The notes below the pieces were generated by a model. It was not told the origin of the DNA. It saw only the letters and a list, made by a program, of their open reading frames with translations, and did not search any database. A stretch of DNA of 41,072 nt from an uncultured Planctomycetaceae bacterium (lineage in GTDB: Bacteria; Planctomycetota; Planctomycetia; Pirellulales; UBA7805), in the NCBI GenBank assembly GCA_964347545.1, contig CAYFZZ010000251.1, positions 1 through 41,072 on the forward strand, in the 5' to 3' direction. Every line of letters begins with the position of its first letter. Positions within the stretch are counted from its first letter, which is position 1. The position numbers and the translations under genes were made by a program. Below are positions 25,672 to 33,701 of the stretch, piece by piece.

Positions 25672-25819
25672 CGTTTTAGGATAAGAGGACCTGCGGGGAA
25701 GGTTTGCCCGGCGGGGACCGCCTGGGGGGTGATGGTCGGCCAGCGCCGCAAGACGGATTTGGGGTGAGACGGATTTGGGGTTAGGTGGATCGCTTGTCGT
25801 TCCAGGGAGAGCAGTCATA

Positions 25820-26368
25820 ATGCCACGCACCAGGCAACCTAAAAGAAAGCGAGCTGCTGGAGGGCGTGCTCAACGCATCGCTCGGGGCCCGCTGGGCGGA
25901 GTCGAATTGTTGCTGATCCAGTCGGTGGATCAGCTGGGCAACCAGGGTGACGTTGTCGAAGTCAAGCCGGGTTATGCCAAAAACTACTTGCTGCCCCAAG
26001 GGCTGGCGACGGTGGCCACTGAGCATCACAAGCGGATGGTGGAAAAACACCGAGCGCGGCTGGTCGCCATCGAAGAGAAGCGTCGCAGTGGACTGCGGGC
26101 TCTGGCGACTTCGCTGGGCAACCTCAGCGTGACGATTGAAGCCAACGCCAACGACGAGGGCCATCTGTACGGCAGCGTCGGCGCCGCGGAAATTTCGGCT
26201 GCCTTAAAGCAGAACGACATTACCGTGACCCCGGACCAGGTGCGGCTGGCCGGACCGCTCAAAGAATTAGGGCTCTACACCGTCCAGGTCCATCTGGGTG
26301 CCGAGATTGACGCGGACTTGAAGGTCTGGGTCGTTCCGGCGGTGGCCAGCGAAAAGAAAGAAGAATAA
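25820..26368 (+). CDS. rplI: 50S ribosomal protein L9
   Basis: This is track ORF 25775..26368(+). ATG 25820 gives a 27-aa basic N-terminal extension. The in-frame TTG at 25907, after GGAG, would give the canonical start M-LLIQSVDQLGNQGDVVEVKPGYAKNYLLPQGLA. The start is therefore uncertain. Confidence 0.88.
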   Translation: MPRTRQPKRKRAAGGRAQRIARGPLGGVELLLIQSVDQLGNQGDVVEVKPGYAKNYLLPQGLATVATEHHKRMVEKHRARLVAIEEKRRSGLRALATSLGNLSVTIEANANDEGHLYGSVGAAEISAALKQNDITVTPDQVRLAGPLKELGLYTVQVHLGAEIDADLKVWVVPAVASEKKEE

Positions 26369-26446
26369 GGGTCAGCTTGTCCCGGCCGCGCCGGGCTTTC
26401 CGGGTTCGAATGTCACCATTGTCAGCCCGCAAGGAGGTGCGCTCTC

Positions 26447-27898
26447 ATGGCCACGGCCCGCGGAATCGAGCGTAAGGCGCAGGCCTCGAGCCTGCCGCTG
26501 TTGGACCGGCAGCCACCCTGCAATCTGGAGGCCGAACGGAACACGCTGGGCAGCATGCTCTTGCTGCCGGAAGTCAGCGACGAAGTTTCGCTGATTCTCA
26601 AGCCCGAGGACTTCTACGACGATGCTCACCGAGTGCTGTACCAGCACATGGTCGATCTGTACGAGACGGGCCAGAAGCTGGATCTGACGCTGCTGGTCGA
26701 CCGCCTCAAGTCGGCCGGGGACTTTGAGGAAATCGGGGGGGCCGCGGCCCTGGCCGAAATCGCGCATTCGGTGCCCACGGCAGCCAATGCGGCCTACTAC
26801 GCTCGTATCGTCCACGAAAAATCGATCCTGCGGTCCCTGATCTACACCGGGACCGAGATTGTGAAGGACGCCTACCAGCAGGGCTCGCCGGCGCGGGAAC
26901 TGTTGAATCTGGCCGAAGAGAAGATCTTTGGCATCCGCGATCAGCGTGGCAAAGGGGCTGAGCTGGCTAATATTCATGACGTATTGATGGAGGCTTTCGA
27001 GCAGATTGATGCGCGGATGGAGCATGGGGGGGCGAGTGGGTTGAGCACCGGGTTTCGGGACGTCGACAAACTGACCGGGGGACTGCACCCCGAAGAATTG
27101 ATCGTCGTCGCGGCTAGGCCCAGCATGGGCAAGACAGCTTTTGCGGCGAACATTGCCGAGCACGTGGCGGTGGAAGAGAACCAGCCCACGCTGTTTGTGA
27201 GCATGGAAATGTCCCGGCTGGAACTGGCTCAGCGCCTCATGTGCTCGTTGGGCGAAATCAACGGCGAAAAATTTCGCAGCGGTTTTCTCTCCGGCGGCGA
27301 TCACAAGAAGCTGATTGAAGTCTCGGCCACGTTGGGCAAAAGCCCCCTCTTTATTGACGATACCCCCACCCGCACCGTCACCGAAATCATCGCCACCGCC
27401 CGACGGCTCAAACGCCGACACGGCTCGCTGGGACTGGTGGTGGTCGACTACCTGCAGTTGATTCAACCGGATAATCCGGCCGATCCACGTCAGGAGCAGG
27501 TCGCCAAAATGGCTCGGCGCCTCAAAGCGATGTCCCGCGAGCTGGCCGTGCCCGTGCTCTGCCTCGCTCAGCTCAACCGACAGACCGAGATGACCAAGGA
27601 CAATCGGCCTCGGCTGAGCCACCTGCGGGAATCCGGCGCGATTGAACAGGATGCCGATGTGGTGATGATGATCCACCGGGAGGAGTATTATTTGAGTCCC
27701 CAGGAGCGGGAGGGGATGCGTTCCGGGGCCAACCCGCACAGCTGCCTGGGAGAGGCTGATGTGATTGTGGCCAAACAGCGGAACGGCCCCACGGGCGACG
27801 TCAAGCTGCACTGGTTCCAGCAATTTACCCGGTTCAAGAATGCCGCCACGCACACCCACAAGGAGTTCGAGGCCTATGCGGCCGAGGGGGAATTTTGA
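26447..27898 (+). CDS. dnaB: Replicative DNA helicase
   Basis: This is track ORF 26447..27898(+). It has PPCNLEAERNTLGSMLL, Walker A AARPSMGKTAFA, LVVVDYLQLI, SRELAVPVLCLAQLNR and VIVAKQRNGPTG. There are no intein-sized insertions. Confidence 0.97.
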   Translation: MATARGIERKAQASSLPLLDRQPPCNLEAERNTLGSMLLLPEVSDEVSLILKPEDFYDDAHRVLYQHMVDLYETGQKLDLTLLVDRLKSAGDFEEIGGAAALAEIAHSVPTAANAAYYARIVHEKSILRSLIYTGTEIVKDAYQQGSPARELLNLAEEKIFGIRDQRGKGAELANIHDVLMEAFEQIDARMEHGGASGLSTGFRDVDKLTGGLHPEELIVVAARPSMGKTAFAANIAEHVAVEENQPTLFVSMEMSRLELAQRLMCSLGEINGEKFRSGFLSGGDHKKLIEVSATLGKSPLFIDDTPTRTVTEIIATARRLKRRHGSLGLVVVDYLQLIQPDNPADPRQEQVAKMARRLKAMSRELAVPVLCLAQLNRQTEMTKDNRPRLSHLRESGAIEQDADVVMMIHREEYYLSPQEREGMRSGANPHSCLGEADVIVAKQRNGPTGDVKLHWFQQFTRFKNAATHTHKEFEAYAAEGEF

Positions 27899-28167: not shown

Positions 28168-29628
28168 TTGACTTTTCTGGCCAAAGTTGCTGCCGCTCTT
28201 CGTAACCACGGGCTGATCTGCGCGACGATGGTCGCGTTGGCAGCCGGTGGCCAGCCTGGTTGGGCCCAGGACCGCGCCGCCGGGCCTGCACCCTCACCCT
28301 GGCAAACCACGCCCCCCGCCGCGGGCCAGACCGTGGCCGATGTGCAGATCACGGGCAACCACCGCGTGGACGAGCAGGAGATTCGGGATCAGCTTGATAC
28401 TCGACCCGGACAGCCCTTCGATCCGCGGATCGTCCAGCGGGACGTCAAAAACCTGACCAAGACCCGCAAGTTTTTTGACGTCAAGGTCAAGACACAGCCC
28501 GGTCCCCAGCCCGCCACGGTGGTGGTGATTTATGAGGTGTTCGAGTTTCCCCGGTTGGAGTACGTGCACTTTCTGGGGAACGAGGAGGTCTCCACCAAGG
28601 CCTTACGCCGCCAGGTGGAAATCCAGACCGGGGATCCGCGGGACACGACGGCCATCGAGGCTGCTCAGCGAAAATTGACCAAGTTTTATGAAGAGCGGGG
28701 CTACAACAAGGTGCAGATTACCGCTGTGGAAGGGCTGCGGTCGGAAGACCGAGGGGCGGTGTTTCGCATTCACGAAGGACCCCGGCAGCGGATCTGGGAT
28801 GTGGGGTTCGTGGGCAATTCCATCGTCTCCGGCGGACGACTGAAGACTCAGATTCAGTCCAAACCGAGCAAGTTCAAGTATGTGACGCCGCTGGCCAAGG
28901 GCTATTTCCAGCGACGTACCGTGGATGAAGATGTGCACCGCTTGACCGCGTATTACCGCAGCCTGGGCTACATGGTCGCTCGCGTGGGGCGGCAGGTCGA
29001 GTTCGATGAGGAGGGCCGCTGGGCCAACCTGACCTTCGTCATCGATGAAGGACCGCGATTCGTGGTCCGCAATGTGTCGTTCAGCGGCAACCAGACCTTT
29101 GCCGAAGCTCAGCTGCGGCCACGGATCACCCTGAATTCCGGCGATTATTTTGACTTAACCAAAATGAACAAGGATGTTCGCCAGCTGACGGACGCCTACG
29201 GCAGTGTCGGCTTCATCATGGCCGAGGTGAAACCGTCGCCGCGAACCCTCGAAAACGCTCCAGCCATCGACCTGGTGTACGACATTACCGAGGGTGACCG
29301 CTATCGGGTGGGGCAGATTCACGTGTCGATCACCGGCGATAACCCGCACACGCAACGTTCGGTCGCCTTAGATCGGATCTCGGTGCGGCCCGGCGACGTC
29401 GTCGATATCCGCGAGATTCGGGACAGCGAACGGCGGTTACGAGCTTCCGGGCTGTTTCTGACCGATCCGCTGAAGGGGGTCCGACCCCAGATCGTCTTTC
29501 GCGAGGCGGAAGAAGAGGAACAGATTGCCGAAGGGGGGGTTGAGCGGGGGACTTTTCGCGGGCAAAACCCGGATCGACCGGCCGGCTCGGTCGCGGGGCG
29601 GCCCACGACGGGGAGGGTGCCATGGTAA
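28168..29628 (+). CDS. Secreted POTRA-repeat protein (N-terminal, periplasmic part of an Omp85/BamA homologue)
   Basis: This is track ORF 28168..29628(+) with a TTG start. It has a signal peptide (MTFLAKVAAALRNHGLICATMVALAAGGQPGWAQD). Five POTRA-like units begin at ITGNHRVDEQEIRDQL, FLGNEEVSTKALRRQV, FVGNSIVSGGRLKTQI, FSGNQTFAEAQLRPRI and the final ISVRPGDVVDIREIRDSERRLRASGLF. No barrel follows in this frame. Confidence 0.8.
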   Translation: MTFLAKVAAALRNHGLICATMVALAAGGQPGWAQDRAAGPAPSPWQTTPPAAGQTVADVQITGNHRVDEQEIRDQLDTRPGQPFDPRIVQRDVKNLTKTRKFFDVKVKTQPGPQPATVVVIYEVFEFPRLEYVHFLGNEEVSTKALRRQVEIQTGDPRDTTAIEAAQRKLTKFYEERGYNKVQITAVEGLRSEDRGAVFRIHEGPRQRIWDVGFVGNSIVSGGRLKTQIQSKPSKFKYVTPLAKGYFQRRTVDEDVHRLTAYYRSLGYMVARVGRQVEFDEEGRWANLTFVIDEGPRFVVRNVSFSGNQTFAEAQLRPRITLNSGDYFDLTKMNKDVRQLTDAYGSVGFIMAEVKPSPRTLENAPAIDLVYDITEGDRYRVGQIHVSITGDNPHTQRSVALDRISVRPGDVVDIREIRDSERRLRASGLFLTDPLKGVRPQIVFREAEEEEQIAEGGVERGTFRGQNPDRPAGSVAGRPTTGRVPW

Positions 29629-31235
29629 TCCCAGCTCGATCCGCCCCCCGCCAGCTGACCGCCCTGGCCACCACTTTGCTCCTTTTGAGCGGCTGCAGCC
29701 ACTGGGGTTCGCCCTCGGCGGTGGAGGGGATTGCCCGCGGGACTTGGCCGCTGCCCCCGGCCGAAGACCGGGCCGCCGCCGTGGCGGCCGCACCGGTAAA
29801 CGCCCATCCGGGGGGCCACGCGTTTCTGGATCCTCGCCAGTCTCGCCCGCCGCAGCTGGTCCGAGGACAGGATCCCTCGGGCCCCGGCTACGGCGGCCAG
29901 AGCGTGGCGGCCCTGCCCGACGATCCGTTGGTGGGGCCGCGGTACACCAGCACACCCCAAGGATCGTACGCGGTACGGCCGGTGCAGTACGTGGCGCCGC
30001 CAGCCCCTGGCGGGACGGCCGGCGCCCCCCTGTTCCAACCGCCGGGAACGGGCCTGAATTCCTCCGGCGTGGGGCAACCCGGCCTACCTTACGGCGGCAG
30101 TGTGACCCCCGCCGCTCAGCCCCCCTTCACTCCCTCCTCCCCGCTGACGCTGCCCCCCGATCGGCCCATCGATCTGGATTTGTTGTTGCAGGAAGCGCAA
30201 ACGGGCCGCCTCATGTTCGGCGTGGGGATCAACTCGGACGCGGGGCTAGTGGGCAACATTGTGATTGACGAACAGAATTTTGACATTGGGCGGTGGCCCA
30301 CGGGGCTGGACGACTGGCTGAACGGCACCGCTTTCCGCGGCGCCGGCCAACGATTCCGCTTGGAAGCCTTACCCGGCACGGAGGTTCAGCGGTATTCGAT
30401 CAGTTTTTCCGACCCGTATTTCCTCGGTACCAACGTCAGCTTTGGGGCCAGCGGGTTTTATTACGAACGAAATTTCACGGATTGGGACGAGCGGCGTTTT
30501 GGGGGGAGGTTAAATCTGGGTTACATCTTCCCCTACCGCCCCGACCTGTCGACCACCCTCTCGGCTCGTTACGAACAGATTGACATTTCCAATCCCCGCG
30601 TCCCCACGCCCCCGGAATTGTTGGAGGTCTTGGGTGAAAATGACCTGGTCAGCCTCCGCTGGGAAGTGGCGCATGACACTCGCGACAACGCATTTCTCCC
30701 CTCCCAGGGCCACCTCCTGCGGCTCTCGTTCGAACAAGCCATGGGGACGTTCACCTATCCGAAATTTGAAGGGGACTACCGCCGATACTTTGTGATGCGC
30801 GAGCGTCCGGACGGGTCCGGGCGCCATGTCCTGGGCCTGGCAGGTCGCCTGGGCGTGGCCGGTTCGGACACCCCCATCTACGAAAATTTCTATGCGGGCG
30901 GTTTTTCGACGTTACGCGGCTTCGAGTTTCGTGGGGCCTCCCCCACCAACCTGGGGGTGATCGTCGGTGGCGAATTCTTGCTGTTGGCCAGCGCCGAATA
31001 TCGATTTCCCCTCACCGCGGACGACAACCTCTACGGTTCCTTCTTCCTGGATGCGGGAACCGTGGAAGAGCGGGTGGAGATCAACGACTTCCGTGTCACT
31101 CCCGGTTTCGAAGTGCGGGTCAACATCCCGGCCCTGGGGCCGGTCCCCCTGGCGGTGGGCATCGGCGTGCCCATCGTGCACGCTCAAGGCGACGACATCC
31201 AGAATTTCCACTTCTTTGTGGGTGTCAGCCGCTAG
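29622..31235 (+). CDS. Omp85/BamA-type beta-barrel protein with predicted lipoprotein signal peptide and long Pro/Gly linker
   Basis: This is track ORF 29622..31235(+). Its N-terminus MVIPARSAPRQLTALATTLLLLSGCSHW has an L-S-G-C lipobox. About 170 aa of P/G-rich linker follow. The barrel then runs from TGRLMFGVGINSDAGLVGNIVIDEQNF through YAGGFSTLRGFEF (the conserved L6 region) to the C-terminal strand NFHFFVGVSR. The gene overlaps the POTRA ORF by 7 nt, in a different frame. Confidence 0.8.
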   Translation: MVIPARSAPRQLTALATTLLLLSGCSHWGSPSAVEGIARGTWPLPPAEDRAAAVAAAPVNAHPGGHAFLDPRQSRPPQLVRGQDPSGPGYGGQSVAALPDDPLVGPRYTSTPQGSYAVRPVQYVAPPAPGGTAGAPLFQPPGTGLNSSGVGQPGLPYGGSVTPAAQPPFTPSSPLTLPPDRPIDLDLLLQEAQTGRLMFGVGINSDAGLVGNIVIDEQNFDIGRWPTGLDDWLNGTAFRGAGQRFRLEALPGTEVQRYSISFSDPYFLGTNVSFGASGFYYERNFTDWDERRFGGRLNLGYIFPYRPDLSTTLSARYEQIDISNPRVPTPPELLEVLGENDLVSLRWEVAHDTRDNAFLPSQGHLLRLSFEQAMGTFTYPKFEGDYRRYFVMRERPDGSGRHVLGLAGRLGVAGSDTPIYENFYAGGFSTLRGFEFRGASPTNLGVIVGGEFLLLASAEYRFPLTADDNLYGSFFLDAGTVEERVEINDFRVTPGFEVRVNIPALGPVPLAVGIGVPIVHAQGDDIQNFHFFVGVSR

Positions 31236-31236
31236 C

Positions 31237-32070
31237 TCAATCCGGCTCGCTCGACCGGAAGGGTAACGGATAGCTGGGCATCCAGCCCAAGGGGAGGGTG
31301 ACCCCGCTGATCCACCGCGCTTCGTTCGACGCCAGGAAGGCCACCGCCGCGGCCACGTCCTGGGTCACGCCGATTCCCAGGGGGTGGCAAGCCTGCAGTT
31401 TTTCCCAGGCATCGGCCGTCAGCCGCTGGACGTGCCGAGCGGCCATGGGGGTGCGGACCAAGGCGGGCGCCACGCCCACCACGCGCACCCCTTGATCGGC
31501 CATTTCCACGGCCAACGACTGTGTCATCCCGTTCAAGCCCGCCTTGGTGGCACTGTACGCCACCAATCCCGGCGTGCCCCCCAGGGCCGTGCAGGACGAA
31601 ACATTGACCACCACCCCCCCGCTCTCCTTCAGCGCCGGCAACATGGCTCGCGTGGTACGCATCACCCCGGTCAAGTTCACGTCCAGCAGTTCGTCCCACT
31701 CCTCGTCCGAGAGATTTTCGAAATCATGAGCCGTCTCGATACCGGCATTGTTCACCAGCACATCAATCTGCCCAAATTCGCCCAGACAAGCGTCGCGGGC
31801 CCGGTCCACCGCCCCCTGGTCCCGCACATCACAGTCGTTCCAGACCACGGGCTGCTTGAACGAATCCAGCCGTTCCAGCAGTTCGCCAGGGGCGCCGCGC
31901 GAGATCAGCCCCAGGGCGGCACCTTCCCGAGCCAGTCGCAGGGCGATCGCACCCCCAATGCCGAAGGGGCTGGCGCCGGTAATGACAGCAACCTTGCCGG
32001 TAAACCGCGCAGGCACAGCCGGCAGTTCCGCCGTGGCGGGGGCACTGTTCTCCTGAAAGTCGGTCGACAT
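31237..32070 (-). CDS. Short-chain dehydrogenase/reductase (SDR)
   Basis: This is track ORF 31237..32124(-), taken from ATG 32070 (MSTDFQ). It has the TGASPFGIGGAIA cofactor loop, an NNAG motif, and the catalytic S...YSATK triad region (AYSATKAG). Confidence 0.9.
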   Translation of the reverse strand: MSTDFQENSAPATAELPAVPARFTGKVAVITGASPFGIGGAIALRLAREGAALGLISRGAPGELLERLDSFKQPVVWNDCDVRDQGAVDRARDACLGEFGQIDVLVNNAGIETAHDFENLSDEEWDELLDVNLTGVMRTTRAMLPALKESGGVVVNVSSCTALGGTPGLVAYSATKAGLNGMTQSLAVEMADQGVRVVGVAPALVRTPMAARHVQRLTADAWEKLQACHPLGIGVTQDVAAAVAFLASNEARWISGVTLPLGWMPSYPLPFRSSEPD

Positions 32071-32471
32071 GGGCGGCAGGCAGTTTGCGGGGCGGGGGGG
32101 GCAGAGCGTCGCCGGATGGCGCAAACGTTTATTGTGAGAAGGCGAGCGGCGAATGTCAAATCCTCACCGCCGTCCCGTCCGGGAGGGGCCAGGCCTCGGC
32201 CCACTGCCGGCAGCCGAAACCGTGGCGGCGGTGCTGGCATGGTCCAGCCAGCACGGCCTGACCAGCGGTGAAGGTTCGCCGACCGTTAAAATTTGCCTGC
32301 TTTGGCTCTACTCCCAGAGGGACGCTCGGCGGCCGGAACGTCTAAAGCCTTATCACGCCAGCTCTCGATACTGATAAACAGATCCCGTCCGCGCGCGCTA
32401 GAATCGCCCCTCGTCTGCCGCGAACAACCGCATCTCTCGTCAGGCTATCCGCTCCTCACCAGGAGGCTGTC

Positions 32472-33701
32472 ATGTCTTCCCGCTGGTTTTCCGGCCTTTC
32501 GCACGTCACCACGGCGATCGCGCTGGTTGCTGTTTGTGCGTTCCCCGTCCGTGGTCAAGATACGCTCGATTCGGAATCACTCGCCGAGGCGCTGGCGGGG
32601 CCTGAGCAAGCCGCGGCCGCCGACCCGCAACCGGCTGATGCGCCGGCGGGCAAAGTGGAGGTTATCCGTGAGCGGCATCCCAACCGGGCGGTCAAGGTCG
32701 AACGCGAGGTGATCCGCGACGCGAACGATAACTATGTCAATCACGGCAGCTGGCGAATGTGGGACGAAAAAGGCAACATGGTGGCGAAGGGCACCTACAA
32801 TCACGGCCAACAGACGGGCGAGTGGACAGCCTGGTACGCGGCGCGGGCCAACCCCATTTTTCAGCAGCAGCCCTTCAACGAATTCGTGGGTCCTTTCACG
32901 TCGCATGCCTCCTTCCAGGCAGGACAGCTGCACGGCACGTGGACGATCTACGATGGCAAGAAGCGGAAGGTTTTCGAATTCCATTACGCGGACGGCGTGC
33001 GGCACGGGACCTGCACCCGCATCTACAGCAACGGCCGCAAGATGGAGGAGATCCAGTACGAACATGGCCAGCTGGAGGGGGCCTTCCGCCAGTGGACCCC
33101 CGACGGTCGTCTGGTGCGGGACGACGTGTACGAAAAAGGCCGTACCGTGGGCCGCAAAATGGCTCATTACCGCGACGGCCGAAAGAAAAGCGAAGCAGAA
33201 TTCCTGCTGGCCAAACAGGAACTGGCCGGCTCGGACGACTGGTGGAAAATTTCGTTGGCCACCACGGTTAAGCGAGGTGAAGACGAAAAACATGGTCCCT
33301 GGCGGACCTGGTACCCCAGCGGGCAATTACAGGTGCAGGCCAACTATCATCACAATCGGCCTTCCGGAGAAATGCCCTGGTCCTGGTGGTACGAAAACGG
33401 GCAGAGAGCCGTGGAAGGGCCTTACGTGGAAGGACAACAACAGGGGACCTGGACCTGGTGGCACCCCAACGGGCAGAAGAAACTGGCCGGCAGTTACGTC
33501 AGCGGCGAACCGTCCGGCAAGTGGATCTGGTGGAAGACGGACGGGATGGTCCTGCAGAAGATCGATTTTTCTGCCGTCAGCCGCGACCTGGTCGAGGAAA
33601 AAATTCCGGATGCCACCGCCGATCACCGCGGATCGGAACCCAGCGTGCTGGCCGTGCCGCTGAACAGCCAGCGGCCCGACTTGCACAGCATCAAGAAATA
33701 A
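32472..33701 (+). CDS. Secreted MORN-variant / YwqK-family repeat protein
   Basis: This is track ORF 32472..33701(+). It has a signal peptide (MSSRWFSGLSHVTTAIALVAVCAFPVRGQD). At least 10 repeats of the G-x-W-x-x-W-Y-x-x-G-x type are present, for example HGSWRMWDEKGN, TGEWTAWY, HGTWTIYDGKK, HGPWRTWYPSGQ and QGTWTWWHPNGQ. Confidence 0.8.
   Translation: MSSRWFSGLSHVTTAIALVAVCAFPVRGQDTLDSESLAEALAGPEQAAAADPQPADAPAGKVEVIRERHPNRAVKVEREVIRDANDNYVNHGSWRMWDEKGNMVAKGTYNHGQQTGEWTAWYAARANPIFQQQPFNEFVGPFTSHASFQAGQLHGTWTIYDGKKRKVFEFHYADGVRHGTCTRIYSNGRKMEEIQYEHGQLEGAFRQWTPDGRLVRDDVYEKGRTVGRKMAHYRDGRKKSEAEFLLAKQELAGSDDWWKISLATTVKRGEDEKHGPWRTWYPSGQLQVQANYHHNRPSGEMPWSWWYENGQRAVEGPYVEGQQQGTWTWWHPNGQKKLAGSYVSGEPSGKWIWWKTDGMVLQKIDFSAVSRDLVEEKIPDATADHRGSEPSVLAVPLNSQRPDLHSIKK

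What the first reader, a model, noticed from the sequence alone, without database searches (positions are those of the whole stretch)
28168..31235. Omp85/BamA homologue encoded as two overlapping ORFs: a POTRA-only secreted protein and a lipobox-bearing barrel
In canonical BamA the POTRA domains and the 16-strand barrel form one non-lipidated polypeptide. Here the POTRA ORF (28168-29628) has a Sec signal peptide and about 5 POTRA units, and it terminates in a low-complexity tail. The barrel ORF (29622-31235) starts 7 nt upstream of that stop (ATGGTAA) in another frame; the offset is 1454 nt, which is 2 mod 3. It opens with MVIPARSAPRQLTALATTLLLLSGCSHW, which has a basic n-region, a hydrophobic h-region and an L-S-G-C lipobox. 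A hydrophobic SPII-like segment is hard to explain as an accidental out-of-frame reading inside an otherwise Pro/Gly-rich linker. This argues for a genuinely split, translationally coupled pair: a soluble POTRA protein plus a lipid-anchored barrel. The alternatives are an assembly indel, a pseudogene or a programmed frameshift.
Basis: partly seen in the sequence, partly recalled or inferred. Interest (0 to 1): 0.7.

Follow-up and report, generated by a model that had tools for sequence, protein, structure and literature searches.

The report
Two-gene BamA with lipoprotein barrel
BamA, the core protein that builds the bacterial outer membrane and is normally a single chain, is encoded here as two adjacent genes (a secreted periplasmic arm and a probably lipid-anchored membrane barrel); about half of the related planctomycete species sampled share this split, so it is a real evolved design and not a sequencing error.

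Summary
ORF1 (28168-29628) is a Sec-signal protein with five POTRA domains. ORF2 (29622-31235) starts inside ATGgTAA, opens with a lipoprotein signal (L-S-G-C25), and continues through a 165-aa disordered linker into a 16-strand BamA barrel.

The split is not an artefact. The same two-gene layout occurs in 10 of 56 related loci in one species-level sample and in 38 of 80 in a second. It is also found in cultured Bremerella genomes and in independent assemblies. Junctions vary from 7-nt overlaps to gaps of several hundred nt, in all three frame offsets, and every barrel gene has its own signal peptide.

More distant relatives carry one fused gene at the same rplI-dnaB-bamA position. Their POTRA5-barrel linker is 200-300 aa long and has no hydrophobic segment. 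The two ORFs are complementary halves of the NCBIfam BamA model (profile positions 2-370 and 386-738). Both are under purifying selection.

Best reading: a split BamA whose halves are exported separately and reassemble non-covalently. Lipidation, translational coupling and reassembly are inferred, not shown. I found no description of this in the searchable literature. I rate it a new variant of a known kind, testable in Bremerella.

The parts
28168..29628 (+). ORF1: the POTRA half of BamA (486 aa, TTG start, TAA stop)
   Evidence: ORF list. Pfam POTRA 2e-56. TIGR03303 BamA profile positions 2-370, 236 bits. AF2 model with five POTRA units, pLDDT 81.5. Foldseek top hits are BamA POTRA1-5, E=2e-28.
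28168..28266 (+). ORF1 Sec signal peptide (aa 1-33). The predicted SPase I site is GWA|QD.
   Evidence: Sequence shows n- and h-regions. A33 and Q34 are at least 90% conserved in a 46-sequence alignment. The cleavage site itself is inferred.
28330..29487 (+). Five POTRA domains (aa 55-440)
   Evidence: AF2 secondary structure. Third-position-dominated substitutions, 55/32/185 against L001.
29488..29625 (+). ORF1 disordered C-terminal tail (aa 441-486). It carries linker motif 1, F-RGQNP, at 29557-29571.
   Evidence: pLDDT below 50 for aa 450-486. 91 of 120 POTRA-only homologues carry exactly one RGQxP-like match, mostly near the C-terminus. Coordinates.
29610..29617 (+). Shine-Dalgarno-like GGGGAGGG, 4 nt upstream of the ORF2 ATG (its GGAGG core, 29612-29616, lies 5 nt upstream)
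   Evidence: Sequence. CGGGGAGGGTGCCATGGTA is invariant between the window and L001 although the flanks have diverged. GGAGG-like motifs sit upstream of the barrel start in most other split loci.
29622..29628 (+). ATGgTAA: the ORF2 start overlaps the ORF1 stop (7-nt overlap, ORF2 in the -1 frame)
   Evidence: The closest relative L001 has ATGgTAG. Other relatives have ATGA, GTGA, TAATG or TAGTG.
29622..31235 (+). ORF2: the barrel half of BamA (537 aa)
   Evidence: ORF list. Pfam Omp85 6e-51. TIGR03303 profile positions 386-738, 168 bits. AF2. The Foldseek top 50 are all BamA barrels.
29622..29696 (+). ORF2 lipoprotein-type signal peptide (aa 1-25). The lipobox L-S-G-C is at 29685-29696 and the Cys25 codon at 29694-29696.
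   Evidence: Sequence. A predicted helix covers aa 9-22. A Cys follows the h-region in at least 43 of the 56 database homologues that have an intact N-terminal signal and in about 34 of 38 split loci. Acylation is not shown.
29697..30191 (+). Disordered Pro/Gly/Ala-rich linker (aa 26-190). It carries linker motif 2, V-RGQDP, at 29862-29876.
   Evidence: pLDDT below 50. Composition is P 19%, G 13%, A 12%. Substitutions of 53/37/76 by codon position support this reading frame. R81 and Q83 are at least 90% conserved.
30192..31232 (+). 16-strand Omp85/BamA barrel (aa 191-537). Strand beta1, TGRLMFGVGINS, is at 30201-30236. The loop-6 motif LRGF is at 30912-30923.
   Evidence: AF2 gives 16 strands at high pLDDT. 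95% amino-acid identity to L001, with substitutions of 26/5/130. Motif coordinates.

Best explanation
This is a naturally split bamA. The orthologue of the single-chain outer-membrane insertase BamA is encoded as two adjacent genes.

Shown by sequence and comparison:
- ORF1 holds the five POTRA domains behind a Sec-type signal.
- ORF2 holds the complete 16-strand barrel behind its own lipoprotein-type signal and a 165-aa disordered linker.
- The pair sits at the same rplI-dnaB-bamA position where sister lineages have one fused gene.
- The break lies in a linker that is already 200-300 aa long and disordered in the fused relatives. It falls between two conserved RGQSP motifs, so each half keeps one.

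Inferred steps:
1. The two ORFs are co-transcribed and translationally coupled, through the 7-nt ATGgTAA overlap and the GGGGAGGG upstream of it.
2. ORF1 is exported and cut by signal peptidase I after A33, giving a soluble periplasmic POTRA1-5 protein.
3. ORF2 is exported, acylated on Cys25 by the Lgt/LspA pathway, sorted to the outer membrane, and its barrel is inserted by pre-existing BAM.
4. The two halves re-associate non-covalently under the barrel and act as BamA. This could happen through POTRA5 contacts with the barrel's periplasmic turns, through a shared partner of the two RGQxP motifs, or both.

The long flexible linker in the ancestor probably made covalent linkage dispensable. 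The lipid anchor may compensate by holding the freed N-terminal linker at the membrane.
For: Domains. ORF1 and ORF2 match complementary halves of the BamA equivalog TIGR03303: profile positions 2-370 at 236 bits and 386-738 at 168 bits. A simple sum of 404 bits exceeds the 297-bit cutoff. BamA scores far better than TamA or TamL for both. Pfam, the AF2 models and Foldseek agree.

Conservation of the split. Ten of 56 related loci are split, each with a new signal peptide right at the barrel start, and 38 are fused. In a second sample of 80 loci, 38 are split and 32 fused. In the protein database at least 43 barrel-only clusters carry lipoprotein signals, against 4 fused among the top 120. 119 of the top 120 ORF1 homologues lack the barrel-start motif and lack a Pfam Omp85 domain; most are POTRA-only proteins.

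Independent assemblies. P0014 is seen on 12 contigs from ENA and JGI samples. Bremerella isolate genomes and Logan SRA re-assemblies encode identical POTRA proteins with the same adjacent Omp85-only gene call.

Orthology. The order rplI-dnaB-bamA is shared by split loci (L001, L002, L004, L006, L057) and fused loci (L011, L046).

Selection. Third-position-dominated substitutions are seen in both halves and, more weakly, in the tail and the linker.

Junction. CGGGGAGGGTGCCATGGTA is invariant against L001.

Fused linkers. They lack any signal-like segment and show the order motif 1, AVLDLVLEGE, motif 2.
Against: - There is no protein-level evidence. Separate products, acylation and physical re-association are all untested.
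- The GC3 frame plot is ambiguous across 29450-30050.
- One formal X XXY YYZ heptamer, A AAC CCG at 29565-29571, lies where both frames are open, so a minor -1 frameshift product cannot be strictly excluded. It is not conserved in L001, which has G AGC CCG.
- The lipobox is absent from some split lineages (Bremerella, L009/L010, L016, L024), so lipidation is not essential to the design.
- A second, full-length BamA elsewhere in the genome could not be excluded from a 41-kb window. No other Omp85 gene was seen among the neighbouring ORFs scanned.
Confidence: 0.85

Rival explanations
1. An assembly or sequencing indel artificially breaks a single bamA ORF in this contig.
For: The region is GC-rich, has homopolymer runs (G7 at about 29531-29537) and three open forward frames. 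Two related loci, L050 and L054, do look like indel-broken fused genes: they have no signal peptide, extra frame breaks, and nest beside fused sisters.
Against: The same stop/start junction and lipobox are present in the closest relative, which has 71-80% amino-acid identity. They also occur in dozens of independent assemblies, isolate genomes and re-assemblies. A functional signal peptide sits exactly at the new N-terminus. No single indel between 29544 and 29626 would remove that hydrophobic segment.
Confidence: 0.01
2. The pair is a pseudogene: a recently inactivated bamA decaying in place.
For: A broken essential-gene homologue is formally compatible with a frame disruption.
Against: Both halves are intact over 45-80% sequence divergence and show strong purifying selection. 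The barrel is 95% identical to L001 with 129 synonymous codon changes. The layout is shared by about half of the sampled species. bamA is essential in the planctomycete Planctopirus limnophila (PMC10632474).
Confidence: 0.01
3. Programmed -1 ribosomal frameshifting or stop read-through makes a conventional fused BamA as the functional product, and the two-ORF appearance is secondary.
For: ORF2 is in the -1 frame and both frames are open over 29544-29626. A formal X XXY YYZ heptamer, A AAC CCG, lies at 29565-29571.
Against: The heptamer is not conserved in L001. Relatives have junctions in all three frame offsets, gaps of 3-544 nt, or an in-frame stop with a spacer, so no common recoding signal is possible. 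A conserved N-terminal signal peptide on ORF2 only makes sense if ORF2 is translated on its own. In a fused product it would be an internal hydrophobic segment that the fused relatives lack.
Confidence: 0.04
4. The two genes have diverged in function. ORF2 acts alone as a POTRA-less insertase, like the 'noNterm' Omp85 proteins or Sam50 without its POTRA domain. ORF1 is an independent periplasmic factor, for example a chaperone or shuttle, that does not dock stably on the barrel.
For: The halves have separate signals and no covalent tether. Some lineages have gaps of several hundred nt between the genes. POTRA-less Omp85 proteins exist, and Sam50 works without its POTRA domain (PMC4104836).
Against: The genes stay adjacent and in the same order in every split locus examined. 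Both keep BamA-level conservation. Each keeps one copy of the BamA-linker-specific RGQxP motif, which suggests a retained common partner. None of this excludes transient rather than stable docking.
Confidence: 0.09

Closest known systems
Canonical BamA (Omp85/YaeT; TIGR03303; E. coli BamA, PDB 5D0O and 4K3B)
   Same: Five POTRA domains, a 16-strand barrel and the loop-6 (V/I)RG(F/Y) motif (LRGF here). It is the best sequence and structure match for both halves. The pair is a positional orthologue of fused bamA in sister lineages.
   Different: The POTRA domains and the barrel are separate polypeptides, each with its own signal peptide. The barrel half has a lipoprotein signal. The E. coli hinge is about 7 residues (V418-G424), and a 4-residue insertion there already uncouples barrel and POTRA motions (PMC12494951). 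Here the connection is a 165-aa disordered linker with no covalent link at all.
TamL / Omp85 'Lipo' subfamily (Bacteroidota and Chlorobi; Heinz & Lithgow 2014, PMC4104836; PMC12045153)
   Same: [quoted passage not shown] This is the precedent for a protein that is both lipidated and a 16-strand barrel.
   Different: TamL is a single chain with three POTRA domains between the lipid anchor and the barrel, and it belongs to the TamA lineage. Here the lipid anchor is followed by a disordered linker, the POTRA domains are on another protein, and the NF052279 TamL model scores only 38-44 bits against a cutoff of 400.
'noNterm' Omp85 proteins (Heinz & Lithgow 2014; Leptospira paralogues, PMC11358297)
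   Same: An Omp85 barrel polypeptide with no POTRA domain of its own.
   Different: The noNterm proteins are described as a distinct Omp85 subfamily (in Leptospira, paralogues alongside a canonical BamA), and the passages read mention no partner POTRA gene. ORF2 is a BamA orthologue by synteny and phylogeny, always has an adjacent POTRA1-5 gene, and carries a long linker with a lipobox.
Fused Pirellulales BamA with a long linker (e.g. L011, L012, L046; P0107, 922 aa)
   Same: Same POTRA and barrel sequences, same genomic position, and the same linker motifs in the order RGQSP, AVLDLVLEGE, RGQSP.
   Different: It is a single ORF, and its linker has no internal signal peptide or lipobox.

Membership tests
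BamA (Omp85 insertase, TIGR03303 equivalog) | C-terminal 16-strand Omp85 barrel with the loop-6 (V/I)RG(F/Y) motif | tested here: met
   Pfam PF01103 at 6e-51. AF2 gives 16 strands over aa 195-536. The Foldseek top 50 are all BamA barrels. LRGF is at aa 431-434.
BamA (Omp85 insertase, TIGR03303 equivalog) | Five N-terminal POTRA domains | tested here: met
   ORF1 has five beta-alpha-alpha-beta-beta units. Foldseek aligns about 380-390 columns to BamA POTRA1-5. The domains are on a separate polypeptide.
BamA (Omp85 insertase, TIGR03303 equivalog) | POTRA domains and barrel on one polypeptide joined by a short hinge | tested here: not met
   There are two ORFs in different frames with a stop/start overlap. 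The layout is conserved in relatives.
BamA (Omp85 insertase, TIGR03303 equivalog) | Whole-protein score above the curated equivalog cutoff (297.15 bits) | tested here: inconclusive
   ORF1 scores 236.1 bits (profile positions 2-370) and ORF2 167.7 bits (386-738). Each is below the cutoff. A simple sum, about 404 bits, is above it.
BamA (Omp85 insertase, TIGR03303 equivalog) | Orthology to bona fide bamA (phylogeny and genomic position) | tested here: met
   The pair nests among fused Pirellulales bamA genes. The rplI-dnaB-bamA synteny is shared with fused L011 and L046.
BamA (Omp85 insertase, TIGR03303 equivalog) | Outer-membrane protein insertase activity and essentiality | not testable with these tools
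   This needs genetics or biochemistry. bamA is essential in Planctopirus limnophila (PMC10632474).
TamL / Omp85 lipoprotein subfamily | N-terminal lipoprotein signal on an Omp85 protein | tested here: met
   L-S-G-C25 follows n- and h-regions. The Cys is conserved in most relatives. This is sequence-level evidence only.
TamL / Omp85 lipoprotein subfamily | Three POTRA domains on the same chain and a TamL-model score above the cutoff | tested here: not met
   ORF2 has no POTRA domain. NF052279 scores 38.1 bits against a cutoff of 400.
noNterm Omp85 | A stand-alone barrel, distinct from BamA, without a periplasmic partner domain | tested here: not met
   ORF2 is a BamA orthologue. It always has an adjacent POTRA1-5 gene.
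Bacterial lipoprotein (SPase II substrate) | Lipobox [LVI][ASTVI][GAS]C at the end of a signal peptide | tested here: met
   LLLLSGC with Cys25, and basic residues R6 and R10 in the n-region.
Bacterial lipoprotein (SPase II substrate) | Actual diacylglyceryl modification and LspA cleavage | not testable with these tools
   This needs globomycin sensitivity, palmitate labelling or mass spectrometry.

The most novel reading that the evidence does not exclude
In a large part of the Pirellulales the BAM core has become a two-component machine. The free, soluble POTRA1-5 protein shuttles or hands over substrates across the planctomycete periplasm. It docks only transiently on a lipid-tethered barrel, possibly through the RGQxP motif retained on each half. 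The split has arisen more than once at the same linker. If so, covalent coupling between POTRA and barrel, thought to be mechanistically important in E. coli, would be dispensable for BamA function in nature.
Probability: 0.2. Interest if true: 0.85.

Novelty: new variant of a known kind. Interest (0 to 1): 0.7.

Why it matters
BamA is a conserved, essential outer-membrane insertase and an antibiotic target. Current mechanistic models stress coordinated motion of POTRA5 and the barrel through a short hinge. In E. coli a 4-residue insertion in that hinge already uncouples the two (PMC12494951).

A natural lineage that first stretched the hinge to 200-300 disordered residues and then cut it, giving each half its own export signal, is an evolutionary experiment on that question. 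It asks whether covalent linkage is needed, and what holds the halves together when it is gone.

The split also has practical consequences. Neither half alone passes the NCBIfam BamA threshold, so automated surveys can miscount BamA or miscall POTRA numbers in Planctomycetota. It adds a second lineage of lipidated Omp85 barrels beside TamL. Cultured Bremerella strains carry a split version, so the idea can be tested directly.

Tried and rejected
- The GC3 frame plot could not resolve the coding frame in the linker. Codon-position substitution counts against L001 and L002 replaced it.
- The third forward frame (29525-30268) has no Pfam hit and an Arg-rich, junk-like translation. I rejected it as a GC artefact.
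- L050 and L054 first looked split. They lack signal peptides, have extra frame breaks and sit beside fused sisters, so I treated them as assembly indels and excluded them.
- A single origin of all split genes was not supported. Monophyly of all split loci appeared in 0 of 200 bootstrap replicates, and 196 of 200 need at least 3 state changes. Deep NJ nodes are weak, so I do not claim a precise number of origins.
- My automatic lipobox classifier both under-calls (N-G-C, P-G-C, Q-G-C) and over-calls (a Cys inside the h-region, as in L082, L083 and L099). I adjusted the counts by eye.
- Literature searches found nothing on a split BamA. Queries were: 'split BamA'; BamA+Planctomycetes+POTRA; POTRA+Pirellulales; 'two separate genes'; Planctomycetes+Omp85; TamL. 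Browning 2013 contained none of my search terms for trans-expression or linkage (in trans, separately, covalent, linked, hinge, split). Mahajan 2020 is not held. A 2025 review of the phylum does not mention BamA.
- I could not run a multimer structure prediction of ORF1 with ORF2.
- I could not scan whole genomes for a second bamA.


Full report

The window has ORF1 at 28168-29628 (+, TTG, 486 aa) and ORF2 at 29622-31235 (+, ATG, 537 aa). They overlap by 7 nt in ATGgTAA, and ORF2 is in the -1 frame. An SD-like GGGGAGGG lies at 29610-29617.

Pfam finds only POTRA in ORF1 (2e-56) and only Omp85 in ORF2 (6e-51, aa 238-534). AlphaFold2 with 46-sequence alignments gives, for ORF1, five beta-alpha-alpha-beta-beta POTRA units (aa 55-440) and a disordered tail (450-486; mean pLDDT 81.5). 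For ORF2 it gives a signal helix (9-22), a disordered stretch (24-191) and sixteen confident strands (195-536).

Foldseek against the PDB returns BamA POTRA1-5 for ORF1 (E=2e-28). For ORF2 all of the top 50 hits are BamA barrels (TM up to 0.74 against barrel-only entries). ORF2 begins MVIPARSAPRQLTALATTLLLLSGC, with a basic n-region, an h-region and an L-S-G-C25 lipobox.

The locus is GC-rich (64%). A third forward frame and several antisense frames are also open, and a GC3 frame plot is ambiguous over 29450-30050. The sequence alone therefore could not decide between a real split and an indel.

2. The split is conserved, so it is not an artefact.

I analysed raw DNA of 56 related loci from species-representative genomes, independent of gene calls. 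Ten are split exactly as in the window (L001-L006, L009, L010, L016, L024), 38 are single fused ORFs, 6 are cut by contig ends, and 2 (L050, L054) look like indel-damaged fused genes.

In every genuine split locus the POTRA ORF's stop overlaps or abuts the barrel ORF's start. The junctions seen are ATGgTAG, ATGA, GTGA, TAATG and TAGTG, or a short spacer. In most of them a GGAGG-like motif precedes the start. A new signal peptide opens the barrel ORF in every case.

Between the window and L001 (71-80% amino-acid identity), the string CGGGGAGGGTGCCATGGTA and the lipobox codons are invariant while the flanks have diverged.

A second, broader sample of 80 loci, partly overlapping the first, gave 38 split, 32 fused and 10 undetermined. 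Of the split loci, about 34 are lipobox-type and about 4 SPase-I-type. Junctions range from 7-nt overlaps to 544-nt gaps and use all three frame offsets.

In the protein database, the 120 best ORF2 homologues include at least 43 barrel-only clusters with lipoprotein signals and only 4 fused proteins. Most of the remainder look like fragments. Of the 120 best ORF1 homologues, 119 lack the barrel-start motif and a Pfam Omp85 domain; most are POTRA-only proteins of about 430-600 aa.

Identical split proteins recur on independent assemblies. P0014 is on 12 contigs from ENA and JGI samples. P0111 and P0090 add two further lineages.

Two cultured Bremerella isolate genomes, plus Logan re-assemblies of their raw reads, carry the pair. 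There it has a spacer of about 60 nt and an SPase-I-type signal on the barrel. The type strain JCM 17758 does too (L099).

3. It is the orthologue of bamA, under selection.

The two ORFs match complementary halves of the NCBIfam BamA equivalog TIGR03303. ORF1 covers profile positions 2-370 at 236 bits and ORF2 covers 386-738 at 168 bits. Each is below the 297-bit cutoff, but a simple sum is above it. TamA and TamL models score far lower.

The gene order rplI-dnaB-bamA is shared by split loci (window, L001, L002, L004, L006, L057) and by fused loci (L011, L046).

Substitutions against L001 at codon positions 1/2/3 are 55/32/185 in POTRA1-5 and 26/5/130 in the barrel, which is 95% identical at the amino-acid level. 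The same direction holds, more weakly, in the ORF2 linker (53/37/76) and the ORF1 tail (17/11/27). This confirms the reading frames.

4. How the split arose.

Fused Pirellulales BamA proteins already have an unusual 200-300 aa disordered linker between POTRA5 and strand beta1. Its conserved order is F-RGQSP-D (motif 1), AVLDLVLEGE, W-RGQSP (motif 2), a P/Q/G-rich stretch, then the barrel. No segment in it is signal-like.

In the window the break falls between the two motifs. ORF1 ends 18 residues after motif 1 (RGQNP, 29557-29571). ORF2's signal peptide replaces the AVLDLVLEGE segment, and motif 2 (RGQDP, 29862-29876) follows. The motif is essentially specific to this linker: 99 of 101 occurrences in about 482,000 aa of ORFs at these loci fall there.

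A bootstrapped NJ tree of barrel domains (53 taxa, 200 replicates) supports the lipobox clade containing the window at 100%. It never recovers all split genes as one clade, and 196 of 200 replicates need at least 3 state changes. On the full tree there is one large split clade (L009, the lipobox clade, L059, L061 and Bremerella) plus two isolated split lineages (L016, L024). Recurrent splitting is likely, but the deep nodes are weak.

5. Mechanism.

Shown: there are two genes, each with its own export signal; the two halves are complete and complementary; the arrangement is conserved; both halves are under selection.

Inferred: co-transcription and translational coupling in this window; SPase I cleavage of ORF1 after A33 (A33-Q34 are at least 90% conserved); acylation of ORF2 at Cys25 and sorting to the outer membrane; and non-covalent reassembly into a BamA-like unit.

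The long ancestral linker makes it plausible that POTRA5-barrel docking was already non-covalent in practice. The lipid anchor may hold the freed linker at the membrane. The RGQxP motif retained on each half suggests a shared partner, but that is speculative. The lipobox is not obligatory, since Bremerella, L009/L010, L016 and L024 use SPase-I-type signals.

6. Rivals.

Assembly indel and pseudogene are effectively excluded by sections 2 and 3.

A programmed frameshift is unlikely. One formal X XXY YYZ heptamer (A AAC CCG, 29565-29571) exists but is not conserved in L001. Relatives with spacers, in-frame stops (L061) or other frame offsets cannot share any recoding signal. The conserved ORF2 signal peptide only makes sense for an independent product.

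One rival I cannot exclude is that the halves no longer form a stable complex, with ORF1 acting as a soluble factor and ORF2 as a POTRA-less insertase.

7. Comparison with what is known, and novelty.

The closest relative is canonical BamA. The defining single-chain feature is tested here and not met. Everything else that could be tested is met.

TamL, the Omp85 'Lipo' subfamily, is the precedent for a lipidated Omp85 protein. It keeps three POTRA domains on the same chain and belongs to the TamA lineage (PMC4104836, PMC12045153). The 'noNterm' Omp85 proteins are a separate POTRA-less subfamily (in Leptospira, paralogues beside a canonical BamA) for which no partner POTRA gene is described in the passages I read (PMC4104836, PMC11358297).

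In E. coli the hinge is about 7 residues, and a 4-residue insertion uncouples the barrel and POTRA conformations (PMC12494951). bamA is essential in Planctopirus limnophila (PMC10632474).

None of ten full-text searches, nor the Planctomycetes papers I read, mention a split BamA. Subscription literature was not searchable. Databases already list the halves separately as 'POTRA domain-containing protein' and 'BamA/TamA family outer membrane protein'.

I rate this a new variant of a known kind, with interest 0.7.

Noticed in passing
window 29557-29571 and 29862-29876; fused relatives such as L012 and L019 (linker): A short motif, [FWVIY]-RGQ-[SNDQ]-P, occurs twice in most of the long-linker fused Pirellulales BamA sequences examined and once on each half of the split proteins. 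99 of 101 occurrences across all fetched loci lie in this linker. Its function is unknown; it may be a binding site for a shared partner.
   Followed up: partly
L011-L056 (fused loci): Even the fused Pirellulales BamA proteins have a disordered P/Q/G/M-rich insert of 200-300 aa between POTRA5 and barrel strand beta1, where E. coli has a hinge of about 7 residues. That is unusual in itself.
   Followed up: partly
L057, L069-L072, L074, L078; P0013-P0017, P0023, P0025: One subclade of barrel lipoproteins has a conserved double Cys after the lipobox (…SGCCRLT…). The role of the second Cys is unexplained.
   Followed up: no
L050 (CAWBTK010000005.1) and L054 (RGBY01000069.1): These are apparent frame breaks in bamA with no new signal peptide, and L050 has an extra frameshift inside the POTRA region. 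Both nest beside fused sisters, so they are probably assembly indels and not true splits.
   Followed up: partly
L026, L033 (labelled Candidatus Kuenenia), L043 (labelled Chitinophagaceae), P0207 (labelled Patescibacteria group): These contigs or proteins carry taxon labels at odds with their close clustering among Pirellulales bamA genes. The MAGs are likely mis-binned or mislabelled.
   Followed up: no
window 29525-30268 (+), 29319-30077 (-), 29437-29955 (-): Long alternative-frame and antisense ORFs overlap the junction and linker. They have no Pfam hits and give Arg/Pro/Gly-rich translations. They are GC-content artefacts, not genes.
   Followed up: yes
window 28168 versus the database gene call P0121 (466 aa): The database gene call for ORF1 starts 20 codons downstream, at an ATG, which would truncate the signal peptide. 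The TTG start at 28168 gives a proper n/h/c signal and aligns from residue 1 with L001.
   Followed up: partly
window 25775-27898 and 31237-33701; L001, L002, L057: A conserved neighbourhood, rplI-dnaB-POTRA-barrel-SDR(-)-MORN-repeat protein, persists across relatives with 66-90% identity. None of the neighbouring ORFs scanned matched an Skp, LpxD or FabZ family, the genes that follow bamA in many Proteobacteria.
   Followed up: partly
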